Shown: positions 12,207 through 51,005 of the stretch, piece by piece
How the letters are laid out: each line of letters begins with the position of its first letter
How positions within the stretch are numbered: the first letter of the stretch is position 1
Assembly: GCA_951406725.2 (NCBI GenBank)
Contig: OX597825.1
Coordinates: forward strand, 60,822,001-60,886,000
Direction of reading: 5' to 3'
DNA: 64,000 nt
Source of the DNA: Octopus vulgaris
Lineage: Eukaryota
The notes under the pieces: model-generated
What the model was told of the DNA's origin: nothing
Seen by the model: the letters and a program-made list of their open reading frames with translations, nothing else
Database searches by the model: none
Program-made: the position numbers and the translations under genes

Positions 12207-12244
12207 TAGATAAGAAAGTTTGTTTGGTAAAGCACGTGGGTGAA

Positions 12245-12583
12245 TATATAAGAAAATAGTAAAGTGTGAAAAAACGACAGAAGGCTTAAATGTTAAAAAA
12301 TATATATATTTGTGTCAAAATGTCTGGAGAATATTGGAAAAATTTTTTTTTCCCTTTCCTTAAAATGACATAATTTTAAAATTTTTAAAGAAATTACCGG
12401 TTTCGCGTGTAGCTTTTCAAATTTCTTGTGACGTTATGTTTATATTGCATGGAATTATCGTTGTTTTTATTTCCAGGAGATTTCTAAATAAGGGGAGGTA
12501 GTGAGTGATTTTTTCCGGTGTAGGGGAGATAATCGCTTAAAAAATTTTTTTCCCATTTCCTTGTTAATTTCTCTGTGTCAGTA
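12245..12583 (-). repeat. 3' pseudo-LTR of the Penelope-like element
   Basis: Reverse complement of 14031-14368 apart from homopolymer-length differences; overlaps the ORF stop codon. Confidence 0.95.
12388..12427 (-). ncRNA. Minimal type I hammerhead ribozyme, U3-A8 core variant
   Basis: AAGAAAT-TTGAAAA-GC-TACAC-GC-GAAA-CCGG-TA-ATTTCTT: perfect 7-bp stem I, 2-bp stem II, palindromic stem III; located in the pLTR as expected for Penelope-like elements. Confidence 0.82.
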
Positions 12584-14039
12584 TGTTCGGATGGTTGAGT
12601 CTGGGTTTGTACTTTTCAATGAAGAATGTTTCCTTGTTCAGTCTCATTTGTGTTGATGATCCGAAAGCACATTGGTAAAATGGGAAGATTAAAAATTGTG
12701 GCAGTAGTTGCTTTGCGCATTTCTCAATGTGCTCACTAAAAGGTATCATTCTATATTCTGGGAATGCAATCTGTTGTCGATGCAGTGTGCATCTGCGCCT
12801 GAGTGATAGTCCCGTGGAACCCACGTAGTCTTGGTGGCAGCCCGAGCATTTAATAACATAAATTATGTTTTCAGAGGCACAAGTAAAGTTAGATTTGATC
12901 TTAAATTTCTGTCCCTCTTTAAAGAAGAATTCTGATCCTTCCAATAGGTTAGGACATGTTGCACAGTTCGATCTACCACATTTTTTTACTTTTGCATCCG
13001 TAATTTTAGAAGACAATTTTGCCTTTGTGAGAATCTTTTTAAGTGATTTAGGCTGTTTGTAGCTTTTAATGATTTGGTGTATGTTTAGAATTTCCTTTAA
13101 TTTTGGGTTTTTATGAAGTATTGGTAAATTCTGGGTGATGATGGTGAAGGCTTCTTTGTTTCTGGGGTTGTATGTAGATATGTAAGGTAGTATTTTCGGG
13201 GAAGGTGTGTTGTTGTGTTGAACTTTTCTTAAAGTTTCTATGTTGATTTCTGTTGCACGTCTGATCCCATCCTCTATGGGTTGAGCTGGGTAATGTCTGT
13301 CAATTAGGGTGTTTTTGAGTTCTTGCAGTCTAAAGTTCCTGGTATTTTGTTCTGACACTATTGTGCATATCCTTCTTGCAAGGTTGAAGGGGATGTTTGT
13401 TTTAGTGTGTCTTGGGTGGCATGAATTAAAAAGAAGGTATTGTTTGGCGTCTGTGGCTTTGTAAAAAATGTCTGTTTCTATTTTAAGGTTAATTTTTTTA
13501 ATTAGTATATCCAAGAACGGGAGCTCCTTTTGGTTGTATTCCATTGTGAACTGTATATTTGGGTTTATGCTGTTCAATAGGTTTTTAAATTTTAGGAGTT
13601 TATCTATGTTTTCATTCCAGAGAATGAAACAATCGTCTAGGAATCGTTTCCAATTCTCTTTTATGTATTGAGAGAGGGAGTTTCCAAAGATTGATAGAGA
13701 TTCCTGGTAAATGATTATTTCCATGTATCCCATTGTTAAGTTCGCAATGACTGGTGCTGCCCTTGTACCCATAGCAATTCCGGATTTTTGACGGTAAAAT
13801 GTATTGTCAAACATGAAGTGGTTATTGTGTAGGATGAATTCAATTGATTTAGTAATGAATTCCTTACTGATCCTTTTTGGTATTTCTTCCGGAAATTGGT
13901 CTAACCAGAATTGTATTGCCTCCAGTCCATAATTATGAGGTATACTGGTATACAAGTTGACTACATCAAATGAAACCAGGATTGTTTCTTCCTTGGTTTT
14001 TTTTAAACCACCTTCCCAAAAAAATTTTTTTACTGACAC
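12564..14039 (-). CDS. Penelope-like reverse transcriptase plus GIY-YIG endonuclease (N-terminally truncated)
   Basis: RT motifs LVSFDVVNLYTSIP, GIAMGTRAAPVIANLTM, WKRFLDDCF, LPFLD, DIFYKATD..QYLLFNSCHP; Cys linker CGRSNCATC (Neptune-like); GIY-YIG NIIYVIKCSGCHQDYVGSTG..LRRRCTLH. The first ~14 aa come from the inversion junction. Confidence 0.95.
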   Translation of the reverse strand: MSVKKFFWEGGLKKTKEETILVSFDVVNLYTSIPHNYGLEAIQFWLDQFPEEIPKRISKEFITKSIEFILHNNHFMFDNTFYRQKSGIAMGTRAAPVIANLTMGYMEIIIYQESLSIFGNSLSQYIKENWKRFLDDCFILWNENIDKLLKFKNLLNSINPNIQFTMEYNQKELPFLDILIKKINLKIETDIFYKATDAKQYLLFNSCHPRHTKTNIPFNLARRICTIVSEQNTRNFRLQELKNTLIDRHYPAQPIEDGIRRATEINIETLRKVQHNNTPSPKILPYISTYNPRNKEAFTIITQNLPILHKNPKLKEILNIHQIIKSYKQPKSLKKILTKAKLSSKITDAKVKKCGRSNCATCPNLLEGSEFFFKEGQKFKIKSNFTCASENIIYVIKCSGCHQDYVGSTGLSLRRRCTLHRQQIAFPEYRMIPFSEHIEKCAKQLLPQFLIFPFYQCAFGSSTQMRLNKETFFIEKYKPRLNHPNILTQRN

Positions 14040-14361
14040 AGAGAAATTAACAAGGAAATGGGAAAAAAATTTTTTAAGCGATTATCTCCCCTACACCGGA
14101 AAAAATCACTCACTACCTCCCCTTATTTAGAAATCTCCTGGAAATAAAAACAACGATAATTCCATGCAATATAAACATAACGTCACAAGAAATTTGAAAA
14201 GCTACACGCGAAACCGGTAATTTCTTTAAAAATTTTAAAATTATGTCATTTTAAGGAAAGGAAAAAAAATTTTTCCAATATTCTCCAGACATTTTGACAC
14301 AAATATATATATTTTTTAACATTTAAGCCTTCTGTCGTTTTTTCACACTTTACTATTTTCT

Positions 14362-14368
<7 letters not shown>
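14031..14368 (+). repeat. Inverted 5' pseudo-LTR copy
   Basis: TACTGACACAGAGAAATTAA...CTATTTTCTTATATAT, the inverted duplicate of 12245-12583. Confidence 0.95.
14187..14226 (+). ncRNA. Minimal type I hammerhead ribozyme, U3-A8 core variant (second copy)
   Basis: Identical to 12388-12427; predicted cleavage after A14219 (GUA). Confidence 0.82.
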
Positions 14369-14393
<25 letters not shown>

Positions 14394-15546: not shown

Positions 15547-17070
15547 AATTAACAAATAAAATATTACAAGCTGTAATGGAGTGGTGTGTGCTTAAAGAAG
15601 AGACACAAAACTCCATTCTTCCTTAATTTCAAAGAATTTCTGTAGTAAAATAATTTGAAAAAAAAATAGTACTCTAAATTAAGCAAAATATTTACATAGG
15701 AGGGATATTAAAAGGTAAGAATGCAATTCATCTGCACATTAACATGTAATGCGAGCAAATTCCTATTATATCTTGTGAAATTCGTTTTGTTATACTAAAG
15801 TGTCTTTTGTTATATACTTTTGTAATAGTAAAGTGTCTCGATCTAAATATCTCGATTTAACGACGAAACATTGAATACCACCATTTGTATGACATCGTGT
15901 TTCTTAAGGATGTTCGAATTCTACCCAAAGTTGAGGAGCTACTTGCTTTTGCGTGGACATTTCCAAAGATGGTCAGCAGAGGTTGCATTAGTTTCAGACA
16001 TATCACAGAAATATCCAGTTTATAAAGCAATTTCAAGATAGTGATGTGTCACTAGAATTTCTTCAAAAATATTTTGTCAGTAATGGACTGATTTACAATA
16101 GATTCTTAATAAAATATCATATACATTATGTTATTTTATAGTGTTTACATTGCATTCATATATATATAGCCATGAGAGAAACTTTTTGTATTTAAACAAC
16201 TTACCTTTAATTTTGTTTATACCCCCTTTTTGCTCATATCCCTCTTGCTCTATCGTAAATTTGGCTGTAATGTACATTCATCATAATCTAATGAGTTTAA
16301 TAATTTAAAGTAATTTTCTATAATATCAGTCAATTTCGGTGCAATTTTATCATCACTTAAATCATAATTCTAAAAATTATTCATATATGTTGCATTCAGT
16401 TACATAGCAGATGATAATAATCAAAAACTGCATACATTACACTCTAGCATTTTACGTCTGCTTGTACTGAAATAAATGGTGTACTTTCAACTTCAGTTTG
16501 AATTATATTAACAATTACTCTATTATTTGCAAGTACAATAGAGTATTGAATTTTACTTGAATTTCACGAAAAATGCTTCCATTCTTCTTTGGAAGAAATT
16601 CTAGATACAACATTTTCTATTTCAGCAATATAATTCAATAATCTTTTTATAATTACCTTTCCCTCGTATCCACGCAATGGCAGATTTGCTCGCTAGCATA
16701 AAAGAAACGGTTATGAACCATCTTGAATATGATCTATTTTCTTCGACTAATTTGTTACGCTGTTCTTTTCCAGGGTTTCCAGTCTCACTACTACATATTA
16801 CTATGTAAGATACAGCGAAAATATTTTAAACCTTTCTATTTAAGTGGCTGATAAGCATAAGAATAATGTTTGCAATCACTCAGAAAATGTTTATACATAT
16901 TATAACCTCACTCGGTCACTAATTAATCCGATTTCAACTACAAAAAGCAAAACAAAACCAAAATAAACGAAACAAAACAGAAGGAAACACCCATGGCCAA
17001 CAATAAACTTTTTTACATAATTTACATTATTTACAATTGACGGATATTTGTCCCCATCTTGTTTGTTGTT

Positions 17071-17116
17071 AACACAACGTTTCGACTGATATACCCGCCA
17101 GGATTCATCAGGTGTC
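17071..17116 (-). ncRNA. Type I hammerhead ribozyme (left arm)
   Basis: GACAC-CTGATGA-ATCCTGG-CGGGTATA-TCAGTC-GAAA-CG-TT-GTGTT; stem II partly mutated. Confidence 0.7.
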
Positions 17117-17151
17117 TTGGGAAAATTTTGAACCTGGATTCTCATTCCTAA

Positions 17152-17197
17152 GACACCTGATGAAGGCTGGAGGGTGTATCAATCGAAACGTTGTGTT
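17152..17197 (+). ncRNA. Type I hammerhead ribozyme (right arm)
   Basis: GACAC-CTGATGA-A-GGCTGG-AGGGTGTA-TCAATC-GAAA-CG-TT-GTGTT; palindromic AACGTT stem III, GUU site. Confidence 0.72.
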
Positions 17198-17519
17198 AAT
17201 AACAAACAAGATGAGGACAAGTATCCGTCAATTATAAATAATGTAAATAATGTACATAATTCCTCATTTCTTAAATATAGAACCTTATAAACTTTTTTGC
17301 CGATGCATATGTGCATAACAATAATTTTATTCGTACCATCTGATTGAAACATAAGATTTTGGTGGGACGTTTTATTGCAAGTTATGGATGATTCAATTAT
17401 GGCTACATTGCTTCCAGGCTTAGTTTACGGTATTTTCGCGCCCGACATCACAAAATGCGTCTGAATAAACATTGCCGGACAGCAAATAGAGACTCGAACA
17501 TTGCTTAGAAAATAATTTT

Positions 17520-19782: not shown

Positions 19783-20100
19783 ACAGCAGCAGTAGTTGTT
19801 GTTGTTGTTGTTGTTGTATTTATTGTTGCTGTTTCGACCACCAGGTCAGCCACGCTCGAGTAAAAGTATGTGCAAGGACGTTCCAGCAATAACAATTTCA
19901 ATTTTTATTCAGACTCTGTATCTGGGATTATCTTATCCAATGGCCCTCATTCCTTTCTGAAGAAAGTAGAGTGTGTGTTGTGAGAGATTTTGTTGTTATT
20001 TCTAGCAGCTGTGGCACACAAACGAAGGCCTCCTCTTGTGATTGTTTACTCGGGCAGCCATTTGTAAGGTTATAAACTATGTCACTATCTGCATCAAATA

Positions 20101-20850
20101 AGGCGGTGAGCGAGAAAATGATTAATGGTATTTCGTCTGCCGCTACGTTCTGAGTTCAAATTCCGCCGAGGTCGACTTTGCCTTTCATCCTTTCGGGGTC
20201 GATTAAATAAGTACCAGTTACGCACTGGGATCGATATAATCGACTTAATCCGTTTGTCTGTCCTTGTTTGTCCTCTCTGTGTTTAGCCCCTAATGGGTAG
20301 TAAAGAAATAGGTATTTCATCTGCCGTTATGTTCTAAGTTCAAATTCCGCCGAGGTCGTCGACTTTGCCTTTCATCCTTTCGGGGTCGATTAAATAAGTA
20401 CCAGTTACGCACTAGGATCGATTTAATCGGCTTAATCCGTTTGTCTGTCCTTGCCTGTCCTCTCTATGTTTAGCCCCTTGTGGGTAGCAAAGAAATAGGT
20501 ATTTTCTCCGTCTTTACATTCTGAGTTCAAATTCTGCCGATGTCAGCTTTGCTTTTTATCCTTTTGCGATCGATAAAATTAAAGTACCAGTTGAGTACTG
20601 GGGTCGATGTAATCGACTTAATCCGTTTGTCTGTCCTTGCCTGTCCTCTCTATGTTTAGCCCCTTGTGGGTAGCAAAGAAATAGGTATTTTCTCCGTCTT
20701 TACATTCTGAGTTCAAATTCCGCCGATGTCAGCTTTGCTTTTTATCCTTTTGCGATCGATAAAATTAAAGTACCAGTTGAGTACTGGGGCCGATGTAATC
20801 GACTTAGGCCCTACTACGAACTTGCTGGCATTGCATCAAAATTTGAAACC
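20101..20850 (+). mobile_element. SINE family B with four tandem ~185-bp units
   Basis: Unit starts GGTATTT at about 20127, 20311, 20498 and 20684. Confidence 0.88.
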
Positions 20851-49359: not shown

Positions 49360-49776
49360 ATTTCTTTACTGCCCATTAGGGGCTAAACACAGAGGGGACA
49401 AACAAGGACAGACACTTGGATTAAGTCGATTACATCGACCTCAGTGCATAACTGGTACTTAATTTATCAACCCCGAAAGGATAAGAGGCAAAGTCGACCT
49501 CGACGGAATTTGAACTCAGAACGTAACGGCAGACGAAATACCTATTTCTTTACTACCCACAGGGGGCTAAACACAGAGAGGACAAACAAGGACAGACAAA
49601 CGGATTAAGTCGATTATATCGACACCAGTGCGTAACTGATAATTATTTAATCGACCCCGAAAGGATGAAAGGCAAAGTCGACCTCGGCGGAATTTGAACT
49701 CAGAACGTAGAGGCAAACGAAATACTGCTAAGCATTTCGCCCAGCGTGCTAACGATTCTGCCAGATTACCACCTTC
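49360..49776 (-). mobile_element. SINE family B dimer inserted in an old family A body, 13-bp TSD
   Basis: ACTGGAGTCTATT at 49347-49359 and 49777-49789. Confidence 0.92.
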
Positions 49777-50193
49777 ACTGGAGTCTATTTCTTCAACTAA
49801 AACCTTCCAGTCGGCGCTCCAGAATAGCTGCAGTCCAATGACTGCAGCAAGTATAAGATAAAAGATAAAAAGCTGTGGTTGTTACCGATTTCCAAGCAGA
49901 GTTACTTTTTCCTTTTCGTTTAATATGAGAGACTATATAATTCAATACCGTAGTATCTCTCTGTTAACATGGAAAGAATTTATGATAGATTTAAACAGGG
50001 CTACATTCAAAACTACAAGATTAATTATTGTCACAAGAGTAAGAAGTACTAACACAGAGAGTGTAAAAGACTGAAATGTCTGACAGAGTTTGAGCTACGT
50101 AGAAAGGGGAAGTTTGTAAAATACTAAAAAAATTAGTGAGGCTAAGAGCTAGATATCATTACGATATATATTCTAATATTTTGACCAAATATA

Positions 50194-51005
50194 AGGCAGC
50201 GAGCTGGCAGAATCGTTAGCACGCCGGGCGAAATGCTTAGCGGTATTTTGTCTGCCGTTACGTTCTGAGTTCAAATTCCATCGTGGTCGACTTTGCGTTT
50301 CATCCTTTCGGGGTCGATTAAATAAGTACCAGTTACGCACTGGGGTCGATATAATCGACTTAATCCGTTTGTCTCTCCTTGTTTGTCTCCTCTGTGTTTA
50401 GCCCCTTGTGGGTAGTAAAGAAATGGGTATTTCGTCTGCCGAGGTCGACTTTGCCTTTCATCCTTTCGTGGTCGATAAATTAAGTACCAGTTGCATACTG
50501 GCGTCGATCGAATCGATTGGTCCCCCCCCCACCAAAATTTCGGTCCTTGTGCCTAGAGTAGAAAAGAATCGTTAGCACGCCGAGCAAAATGCTTGGTAGC
50601 ATTTCGTACGTCTTTACATCCTGAGGGCAAGTTCCACCGAGATCCACTTTGCCTTTCATTCTTTCGGATGGATAAAATAAATACCAGTTGAACACGGGAG
50701 GAGGGCAATGTAATTGATCAGCTTCCAACCCCAAAACTTCTGGTCTTGTGCTAAAATTTGAAACCAGTATTGTGACTGACCATTAGGCAGGGCAGCTGGC
50801 AGAATCGTTAACACACCGGGCAAAATACTTAGCGGCATTTCGTCTCTCTACGTTCTGAGTTGAGATTCCGCCGATGTCAACTTTGCATTTCATCATTCAG
50901 GGTCTATAAAATAAGTACCAGCTAAATACTGGGGTAGTTGTAATTGATTGACCTCCCCACTCCCGCCTCCGATCTTACTGACCTTGTGCTAAGAAGTGGA
51001 AACAA
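50194..51005 (+). mobile_element. Three consecutive SINE family B copies
   Basis: Starts at about 50194, 50566 and 50785. Confidence 0.85.

What the first reader, a model, noticed from the sequence alone, without database searches (positions are those of the whole stretch)
17003..17298. 270-bp palindromic two-ribozyme element with a 12-bp target-site duplication
Seen: two ~108-bp inverted arms around a ~23-nt spacer, each beginning just upstream of a CTGATGA hammerhead and pointing outward, plus a ~30-nt unpaired extension on the right and a perfect 12-bp TSD. It has the same architecture as the 12.2-14.4 kb element with the ORF removed. The arms' mutations are complementary, so the consensus stem II (GGCTGG/TCAGTC) can be rebuilt. 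Inference: a MITE-like but retro-mobilised unit with a ribozyme on both strands, in which the long hairpin competes with ribozyme folding.
Basis: partly seen in the sequence, partly recalled or inferred. Interest (0 to 1): 0.8.

Follow-up and report, generated by a model that had tools for sequence, protein, structure and literature searches.

The report
Truncated Penelope retrotransposon end, inverted pair
This 272-bp hairpin is not its own mobile element but two head-to-head, truncated copies of the ribozyme-bearing end of an old Penelope-type retrotransposon (an arrangement already described for that group), and the parent carries an unexpected tRNA-like segment at which most of its short copies begin, likely marking an internal promoter.

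Summary
Observation confirmed: 110-bp inverted arms (11 mismatches), 21-nt spacer, 32-nt one-sided extension, perfect 12-bp TSD, and a minimal hammerhead in each arm, both with damaged stem II. Interpretation largely refuted. The arms are the pseudo-LTR (pLTR) and first ~45-54 codons of an old Penelope-like element (RT + GIY-YIG; at least 11,398 arm copies). The 'spacer' is parent sequence, and the extension is the PLE 'tail', which runs straight into the ORF in 28 of 30 long copies. Junctions vary: 20 classes in 31 short palindromes, and the window's exact junction occurs 6 times against 7,848 unjoined. Same-junction copies form no clade and carry the tail on either arm. The tail is on exactly one arm in 88 of 98 pairs, and TSDs differ between copies. 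This is the published inverted-pLTR + tail + TSD structure. The 12.2-14.4 kb element is an unrelated, younger family. Not found in my searches: the parent pLTR holds a tRNA-like head with A/B boxes, and 32 of 44 copies reaching it stop there, suggesting an internal (possibly Pol III) start that yields SINE-like solo pLTRs. The scan had no earlier relevant finding.

The parts
17003..17014 (+). left target-site duplication (12 bp)
   Evidence: identical to 17287-17298; family TSD test 57/88 vs 6/440
17015..17152 (-). tail-less, longer copy of the Penelope pLTR core (sense on minus); includes the so-called spacer 17124-17144 and the probable ORF start codon at 17145-17143
   Evidence: matches natural-copy core columns 14-152; reads as the parent ORF N-terminus
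17071..17116 (-). minimal type I hammerhead, core intact, stem II 4 of 6 pairs (damaged)
17145..17152 (.). junction microhomology shared by both arms (7 of 8 match between the long arm's end and the short arm's start)
   Evidence: 6-nt overlap of arm alignments
17145..17254 (+). shorter copy of the pLTR core (sense on plus)
   Evidence: core columns 45-181 with the tail
17152..17197 (+). minimal type I hammerhead, core intact, stem II 5 of 6 pairs; predicted cut between 17192 and 17193
   Evidence: layout as in PMC4209133
17255..17286 (+). PLE 'tail': parent sequence between the two 3' end points, continuing into the ORF in long copies
   Evidence: 28 of 30 long copies run tail-to-ORF; on exactly one arm in 88 of 98 pairs
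17287..17298 (+). right target-site duplication (12 bp)

Best explanation
The element is a single, decayed insertion of an old Penelope-like retrotransposon, made of two 5'-truncated copies of its hammerhead-bearing pLTR joined head to head at a short microhomology, likely because the element's RT-endonuclease nicked both target strands 12 bp apart and started two cDNAs at the two internal start sites (one with the ~30-nt tail, one without), whose 3' ends then annealed and were filled in. Shown: parent identity, variable junctions, one-sided tail, individual TSDs, tail-to-ORF continuity. Inferred: the two-cDNA route and the microhomology annealing. The palindrome lacks the tRNA-like head upstream and the ORF sequence downstream of the tail, so it is predicted to be a dead end with both ribozymes trapped in the hairpin. 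Second, more speculative step: most short copies of the family are solo pLTRs that would arise when RT starts at the pLTR-ORF junction, about 300 nt from the RNA's 5' end, and runs to a start site just upstream of a tRNA-derived A/B-box segment in the pLTR.
For: Parent: copies extend upstream through an (AAT)n linker and a 75-nt head into an ORF end; RT RVT_1 E=1.4e-10; C-terminal GIY-YIG clusters score 0.97. Tail continues into the ORF N-terminus in L303 and in 28 of 30 long copies. The arm is an open frame from an ATG in the pLTR; the two common subfamily variants fall at third codon positions, one at the tolerant hammerhead position 7 (plus that frame). Inverted partner within 1.5 kb for 67 of 99 position-ordered arms. 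Tail on exactly one arm in 88 of 98 pairs, against 48.8 expected if independent (P=4e-17). Junctions: 20 classes in 31 short palindromes, 26 of the 31 with overlapping arm ends. Eight same-site copies are 8.8-10.1% apart, against 10.3% to other palindromes, with no private allele beyond the junction base and a CpG site. The tail sits on the shorter arm in 22 and on the longer in 8 of 31; simple cDNA fold-back cannot put it on the shorter arm. Published: inverted pLTR + 31-bp tail + 9-10-bp TSD (PMC3846280); dual minimal hammerheads 100-700 bp apart on opposite strands from truncated PLEs (PMC4209133); both strands cut and extended, two internal RT starts flanking the tail, cleavage not needed (PMC11167929). 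In agreement, 74 of 78 arms extend upstream past the predicted cut site.
Against: Arms of one insertion are more alike than arms of different insertions (8.6% vs 9.7%; rare variants shared 31 vs 7.3 shuffled; two shared in the window copy), which fits one template with fold-back or later gene conversion as well as two RNAs from one source. Full haplotype swaps between arms, expected if two unrelated RNAs were used, occur in only 1 of 70 pairs. The window junction class is the commonest among the 31 (7 of 31), though that set was selected with the window as query. No empty-site allele was checked. No expression data bear on the ribozyme or the start site.
Confidence: 0.85

Rival explanations
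1. A discrete MITE-like, two-ribozyme family: a palindromic master of fixed spacer is transcribed and retro-mobilised as a unit.
For: The same junction recurs in 7 of 31 short palindromes, plus two more resolved at the same site; each has its own flanks and TSD.
Against: Only 6 exact junction 21-mers genome-wide against 7,848 unjoined. Same-junction copies carry both subfamily alleles and the tail on either arm, form no clade and show no fixed left/right differences. The junction is an 8-nt microhomology that predicts recurrence. No promoter head, and no ORF sequence beyond the tail.
Confidence: 0.04
2. Same identity (truncated PLE), but the inversion arises by fold-back self-priming of a single cDNA or RNA before integration, with the tail trimmed from one end when the endonuclease resolves the intermediate.
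For: Proposed in PMC3846280 (self-priming) and PMC8557442 (tail from EN-mediated resolution). Arms share rare variants and subfamily alleles (Fisher P=1.5e-7 and 1e-6). Many full-length pairs turn on a small palindrome at the head start.
Against: Fold-back makes the second arm the shorter one and copies it from the first, so a tail on the shorter arm only (22 of 31, including the window) needs extra trimming of the first arm. 11 of 77 pairs differ at hammerhead position 7, a transversion. In vitro data show two RT starts and extension of both strands.
Confidence: 0.3
3. The pile-up of 5' ends at the tRNA-like head is not a Pol III start. It is an ordinary internal Pol II start (as in D. virilis Penelope), an RNase P cut of a tRNA-like fold, or an RT stall/annealing hotspot at the small palindrome there.
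For: D. virilis Penelope has a TATA-less internal promoter in the pLTR (PMC2377424). ARAGORN calls no tRNA in 15 of 15 loci and Rfam gives no tRNA hit on L042. The mRNA must be translated, which Pol III RNAs do poorly (own knowledge). A 5-bp palindrome spans the head start.
Against: The head aligns with this genome's tRNA-Arg/Ala genes at z about 6-6.7, with A- and B-box-like motifs in register. 31 of 75 short copies keep 3 or more nt of leader and only 3 keep 8 or more, which an RNase P cut at +1 would not leave. About six copies that end there have no inverted partner. No T4 terminator in the unit, and none shared by all four long copies over about 2 kb (weak, 2-4 expected by chance).
Confidence: 0.5

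Closest known systems
Endonuclease-containing Penelope-like elements (Penelope/Poseidon type), e.g. Pen2a_Av of Adineta vaga and Poseidon of Anolis carolinensis
   Same: RT plus C-terminal GIY-YIG ORF; pLTR overlapping the ORF start; hammerhead in the pLTR; inverted 5'-truncated partner; ~30-nt tail on one end; TSD of about 10-16 bp
   Different: The pLTR here holds a tRNA-like segment and an (AAT)n linker, and short copies begin at that segment. The assignment to the Penelope/Poseidon clade rather than another C-terminal-EN clade rests on recalled motifs, not on a tree.
Minimal type I hammerheads of metazoan PLEs (PMC4209133)
   Same: Short helix I, long helix II, extra base before stem II, palindromic helix III; pairs on opposite strands 100-700 bp apart are described there as truncated PLEs
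   Different: Activity not tested here; both window copies have stem II mismatches
Schistosoma SINE-like hammerhead repeats (Pol III promoter plus hammerhead; seen only via the review PMC6765202)
   Same: A Pol III-type promoter segment next to a hammerhead in a short retroposed unit
   Different: Those are tandem repeats not reported there as part of a PLE; here the segment is inside an autonomous-type PLE's pLTR and copies are dispersed, often inverted, with PLE tails
Non-LTR retrozymes (PMC7229834; bioRxiv 10.64898/2026.07.22.740005)
   Same: Short, non-coding, type I hammerhead, related to PLE pLTRs
   Different: Retrozymes are head-to-tail tandem arrays processed by the ribozyme; these copies are solo or head-to-head and were copied from uncut RNA
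MITEs (own knowledge)
   Same: Short, inverted repeats, TSD
   Different: No fixed ends, spacer or TSD length; one-sided tail; the parent is a retroelement

Membership tests
EN+ Penelope-like element (fragment of) | parent ORF with RT and C-terminal GIY-YIG endonuclease | tested here: met
   RVT_1 E=1.4e-10; GIY-YIG atlas clusters 0.97, family on 18-27% of members; Pfam scan itself missed the GIY-YIG
EN+ Penelope-like element (fragment of) | [quoted passage not shown] | tested here: met
   pLTR core both upstream and downstream of the ORF in L303; partial tandems in 4 of 30 long copies
EN+ Penelope-like element (fragment of) | inverted 5'-truncated copy and 30-40-bp tail at one end | tested here: met
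   67 of 99 arms with an inverted partner; tail on one arm in 88 of 98
EN+ Penelope-like element (fragment of) | minimal hammerhead in the pLTR | tested here: met
   motif and stems present; 36 of 172 scored arms fully intact
Penelope/Poseidon clade | RT phylogeny with reference PLEs | not tested
   no reference PLE set was fetched; label from recalled motifs
MITE-like discrete family | uniform length, spacer and ends; copies form a clade | tested here: not met
Non-LTR retrozyme | head-to-tail tandem monomers cut at the ribozyme | tested here: not met
   74 of 78 arms extend upstream past the cut site; arrangement solo or head-to-head
tRNA-derived SINE (for the family's solo pLTRs) | tRNA-related head with A and B boxes at a discrete 5' end | tested here: met
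   z about 6-6.7 to this genome's tRNA-Arg/Ala genes; 32 of 44 copies stop within about 14 nt
tRNA-derived SINE (for the family's solo pLTRs) | own lineage, amplified from non-autonomous masters | tested here: not met
   same core divergence as ORF-linked copies (5.5% vs 5.4%), same alleles, no diagnostic column at P<0.01 in 21 vs 76 copies
tRNA-derived SINE (for the family's solo pLTRs) | transcription by RNA polymerase III | not testable with these tools
   only assembled contigs were available
Active hammerhead ribozyme (window copy) | self-cleavage | not testable with these tools
   folding predicts sequestration by about 70 kcal/mol

The most novel reading that the evidence does not exclude
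A Penelope retrotransposon captured a tRNA-derived segment and uses it as a Pol III internal promoter inside its pLTR. Internal RT initiation on these transcripts floods the genome with tens of thousands of SINE-like, hammerhead-bearing solo pLTRs, and a dimeric RT primes two cDNAs at once to give the head-to-head pairs, so this family is a large natural record of both the promoter and the unresolved PLE inversion mechanism.
Probability: 0.35. Interest if true: 0.62.

Novelty: new variant of a known kind. Interest (0 to 1): 0.35.

Why it matters
The palindrome itself is ordinary PLE debris, and recognising that prevents a false 'two-ribozyme MITE'. The family is still useful. How PLEs make inverted pLTRs and tails is described as unresolved (PMC8557442, PMC3846280), and the counts here (tail on exactly one arm, on either the longer or the shorter; microhomology junctions; uncut templates) favour two internally primed cDNAs, extending the in vitro result of PMC11167929 to genomic copies. 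The sharp 5' end at a tRNA-like head suggests a route by which a PLE generates SINE-like elements without a separate SINE lineage. About two thirds of sampled copies are inverted pairs, a possible source of long double-stranded RNA where they are transcribed (inference, untested).

Tried and rejected
Rfam: no hit at gathering score in the window; E-value scans of the element and of L042 gave only generic hairpins. Folding single arms did not give the hammerhead as the lowest-energy fold (z from +0.2 to -1.75), as expected for a minimal motif. ARAGORN found no tRNA in 15 of 15 head loci. The idea that the 12.2-14.4 kb family is the parent was rejected (3 of its 30 loci merely have copies of the old family nearby). 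The idea of a separate, younger SINE lineage was rejected; heads of short copies are somewhat less diverged (7.5% vs 11.1%, P=0.016, 54 vs 9 copies), a weak result in a sample partly chosen by an exact head motif. Ribozyme-cut templates: 4 of 78 arms start at columns 92-96, two of them apparent internal deletions; not significant. Expression: no RNA holder listed on record; four runs guessed to be RNA hold contigs over ORF end, head and core, but contigs cannot show start, strand or level, and the depth step near the cut site coincides with a 3-nt deletion in the reference copy. siRNAs and A-to-I editing could not be examined. Earlier scan findings: two unrelated bacterial notes, otherwise none. 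Literature searches that found no tRNA-headed pLTR or two-cDNA model for PLEs. Repbase and Dfam were not available and no supplements were read, so the family may already be catalogued under a Penelope or SINE name.

Full report
Observation. The sequence is as described. A 12-bp direct repeat (17003-17014, 17287-17298) encloses two inverted arms, 17014-17123 and 17145-17254, that align over 110 bp with 11 mismatches, with 21 unpaired bases between them and 32 extra bases on the right. Each arm has a hammerhead core pointing outward, at 17157 (+) and 17111 (-). Rfam does not detect them, but the layout is that of the minimal PLE hammerheads of PMC4209133 (parts 1-2 of 4 read). Both window cores are intact; stem II has 5 of 6 pairs on the right and 4 of 6 on the left. 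The whole element folds at -157 kcal/mol, against -84 with the ribozyme stems forced. On either strand the complement is made before the ribozyme.

The family. The window lies in a 2.8-Gb genome whose organism I did not establish. A 21-mer from the arm matches exactly 11,398 times; at about 5% divergence that implies roughly 30,000 arms (estimate). Searching with one arm showed longer copies: an (AAT)n linker and a 75-nt head upstream. Searching with the head found the arm downstream in 28 of 30 best hits and 23 of 30 position-ordered hits. Some copies run on upstream into an ORF end, and a search with that ORF end returned copies with RT and C-terminal GIY-YIG features followed by head, linker, hammerhead and tail. 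In near full-length copies the tail continues directly into the ORF N-terminus (L303; 28 of 30 loci), and the arm is an open frame from an ATG in the pLTR. So the arms are the pLTR core and the first ~45-54 codons of a Penelope-like element, the spacer is extra parent sequence on the left arm, and the extension is the PLE tail. The 12.2-14.4 kb element has the same layout but is a separate, very young family (150 of 150 scored matches at 99-100% aa identity; no DNA match; 22% identity over 58 aa).

Family or recurrence? From 104 arm pairs found in loci L001-L216 (the 30 young-family loci excluded) I kept the closest pair per locus and dropped one duplicated locus, leaving 98. The tail is on exactly one arm in 88, on both in 2 and on neither in 8 (48.8 expected if independent). 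The 31 short palindromes, mostly selected with the window as query, fall into 20 junction classes; 7 share the window's class, with both subfamily alleles and both tail sides. The exact junction 21-mer occurs 6 times genome-wide, the unjoined parent 21-mer 7,848 times. Eight copies joined at this site are 8.8-10.1% apart, against 10.3% to other palindromes, and share no private allele apart from the junction base and a CpG site. The junction is an 8-nt microhomology. TSDs differ between copies and are found in 57 of 88 pairs against 6 of 440 shuffles.

Mechanism. PMC11167929 (parts 1-2 of 4 read) shows a PLE protein cutting and extending both target strands, starting RT at two internal sites that bound the tail, needing ORF sequence downstream of those sites, and not needing ribozyme cleavage. 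Two cDNAs, one from each site, that anneal at their 3' ends by microhomology give exactly this structure. Simple fold-back (proposed in PMC3846280, passages read) makes the shorter arm a copy of the longer, yet the tail is on the shorter arm only in 22 of 31 cases and on the longer in 8 (sample biased towards the window's type). Against the two-RNA reading: arms of one insertion share subfamily alleles (11 of 77 and 12 of 86 discordant) and rare variants (31 vs 7.3), and full haplotype swaps are 1 of 70. So both arms usually trace to one source or one period, and one versus two RNA molecules is unresolved. Templates were uncut: 74 of 78 position-ordered arms extend past the predicted cleavage site.

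The tRNA-like head. Three natural heads align with this genome's tRNA-Arg and tRNA-Ala genes at z about 6-6.7 (30 tRNA loci of 8 anticodon types compared), though ARAGORN and Rfam do not call them tRNAs. In 99 position-ordered arms (93 fetched loci covering the first 100 listed matches), 38 were classed as starting at head positions 1-4. I removed 3 spurious matches to the partner arm and 1 duplicate and moved 2 with about 20 nt of upstream sequence to the read-through class, leaving 32 that stop within about 14 nt and 12 that go on; the upstream rate predicts 1.7. Partly overlapping samples agree: 24 of 30 and 20 of 24. Leaders of 3-7 nt are common and 8 or more are rare. Short and ORF-linked copies have the same core divergence and alleles, so the short copies are not a separate SINE lineage; they look like solo pLTRs made when RT starts at the pLTR-ORF junction and reaches the RNA's 5' end. 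A Pol III start is the boldest reading; an internal Pol II start as in D. virilis Penelope (PMC2377424, abstract and Discussion read), RNase P processing or a local palindrome hotspot remain open. The absence of shared T4 runs in four long copies is weak support. RNA data were contigs only and do not bear on this.

Comparison and novelty. Inverted pLTRs with a tail and TSD are standard for PLEs (PMC8557442 and PMC8969392, passages; PMC3846280), and opposite-strand hammerhead pairs from truncated PLEs are noted in PMC4209133. Retrozymes are tandem and ribozyme-processed (PMC7229834, passages; bioRxiv 10.64898/2026.07.22.740005, part 1 of 5 and passages). Schistosome SINE-like repeats combine a Pol III promoter and a hammerhead (seen only in the review PMC6765202, passages). 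Passages of PMC6962438, PMC13282606 and PMC10294476 did not describe this unit. Nine searches found no tRNA-headed pLTR; repeat databases and supplements were not seen and may list the family. Verdict: the flagged palindrome is an already known PLE insertion structure; the parent is a new variant because of the tRNA-like pLTR head and its sharp 5' end. Interest 0.35.

Noticed in passing
window 12210-14370: Very young, probably active Penelope-like family: 150 of 150 scored matches at 99-100% aa identity over the endonuclease part, open frames often 811 aa; head-to-head pLTRs with two 3' end points about 38 nt apart, inserted in (TA)n. An ideal system to test the inversion mechanism.
   Followed up: partly
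window 14194 (+) and 12420 (-): The young family's hammerhead-like core reads UUGAAAA, the U3-A8 covariant noted in PMC4209133, with a very short stem II.
   Followed up: partly
window 49400-50520 and 20100-20500: Inverted and tandem copies of another short repeat with tRNA-like boxes (probably a SINE; label from recall).
   Followed up: no
window from 32230 to about 39000: Large array of a 27-bp satellite with strong GC skew.
   Followed up: no
L045, L053, L059, L080, L124 (AAT linker): The (AAT)n linker of the old family is a frequent landing site for other retroelements with AAT tails (SINE-like and non-LTR 3' ends; labels from recall).
   Followed up: no
family-wide, hammerhead position 7 (window 17161): Arms discordant at this T/A site are mostly not discordant at the linked site (9 vs 1 of 70 pairs); unexplained: a hypermutable site, a third co-expressed source, or patchy conversion.
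   Followed up: partly
L169 and L171 (G000:C1 about 21.30 and 22.16 Mb): The same inverted insertion occurs twice in opposite orientation about 857 kb apart, suggesting a segmental duplication.
   Followed up: no
L303-L306: The parent's sense strand has no T4 run shared by all four long copies over about 2 kb, whereas the young family's ORF has six in 1.4 kb; weak, near chance.
   Followed up: partly
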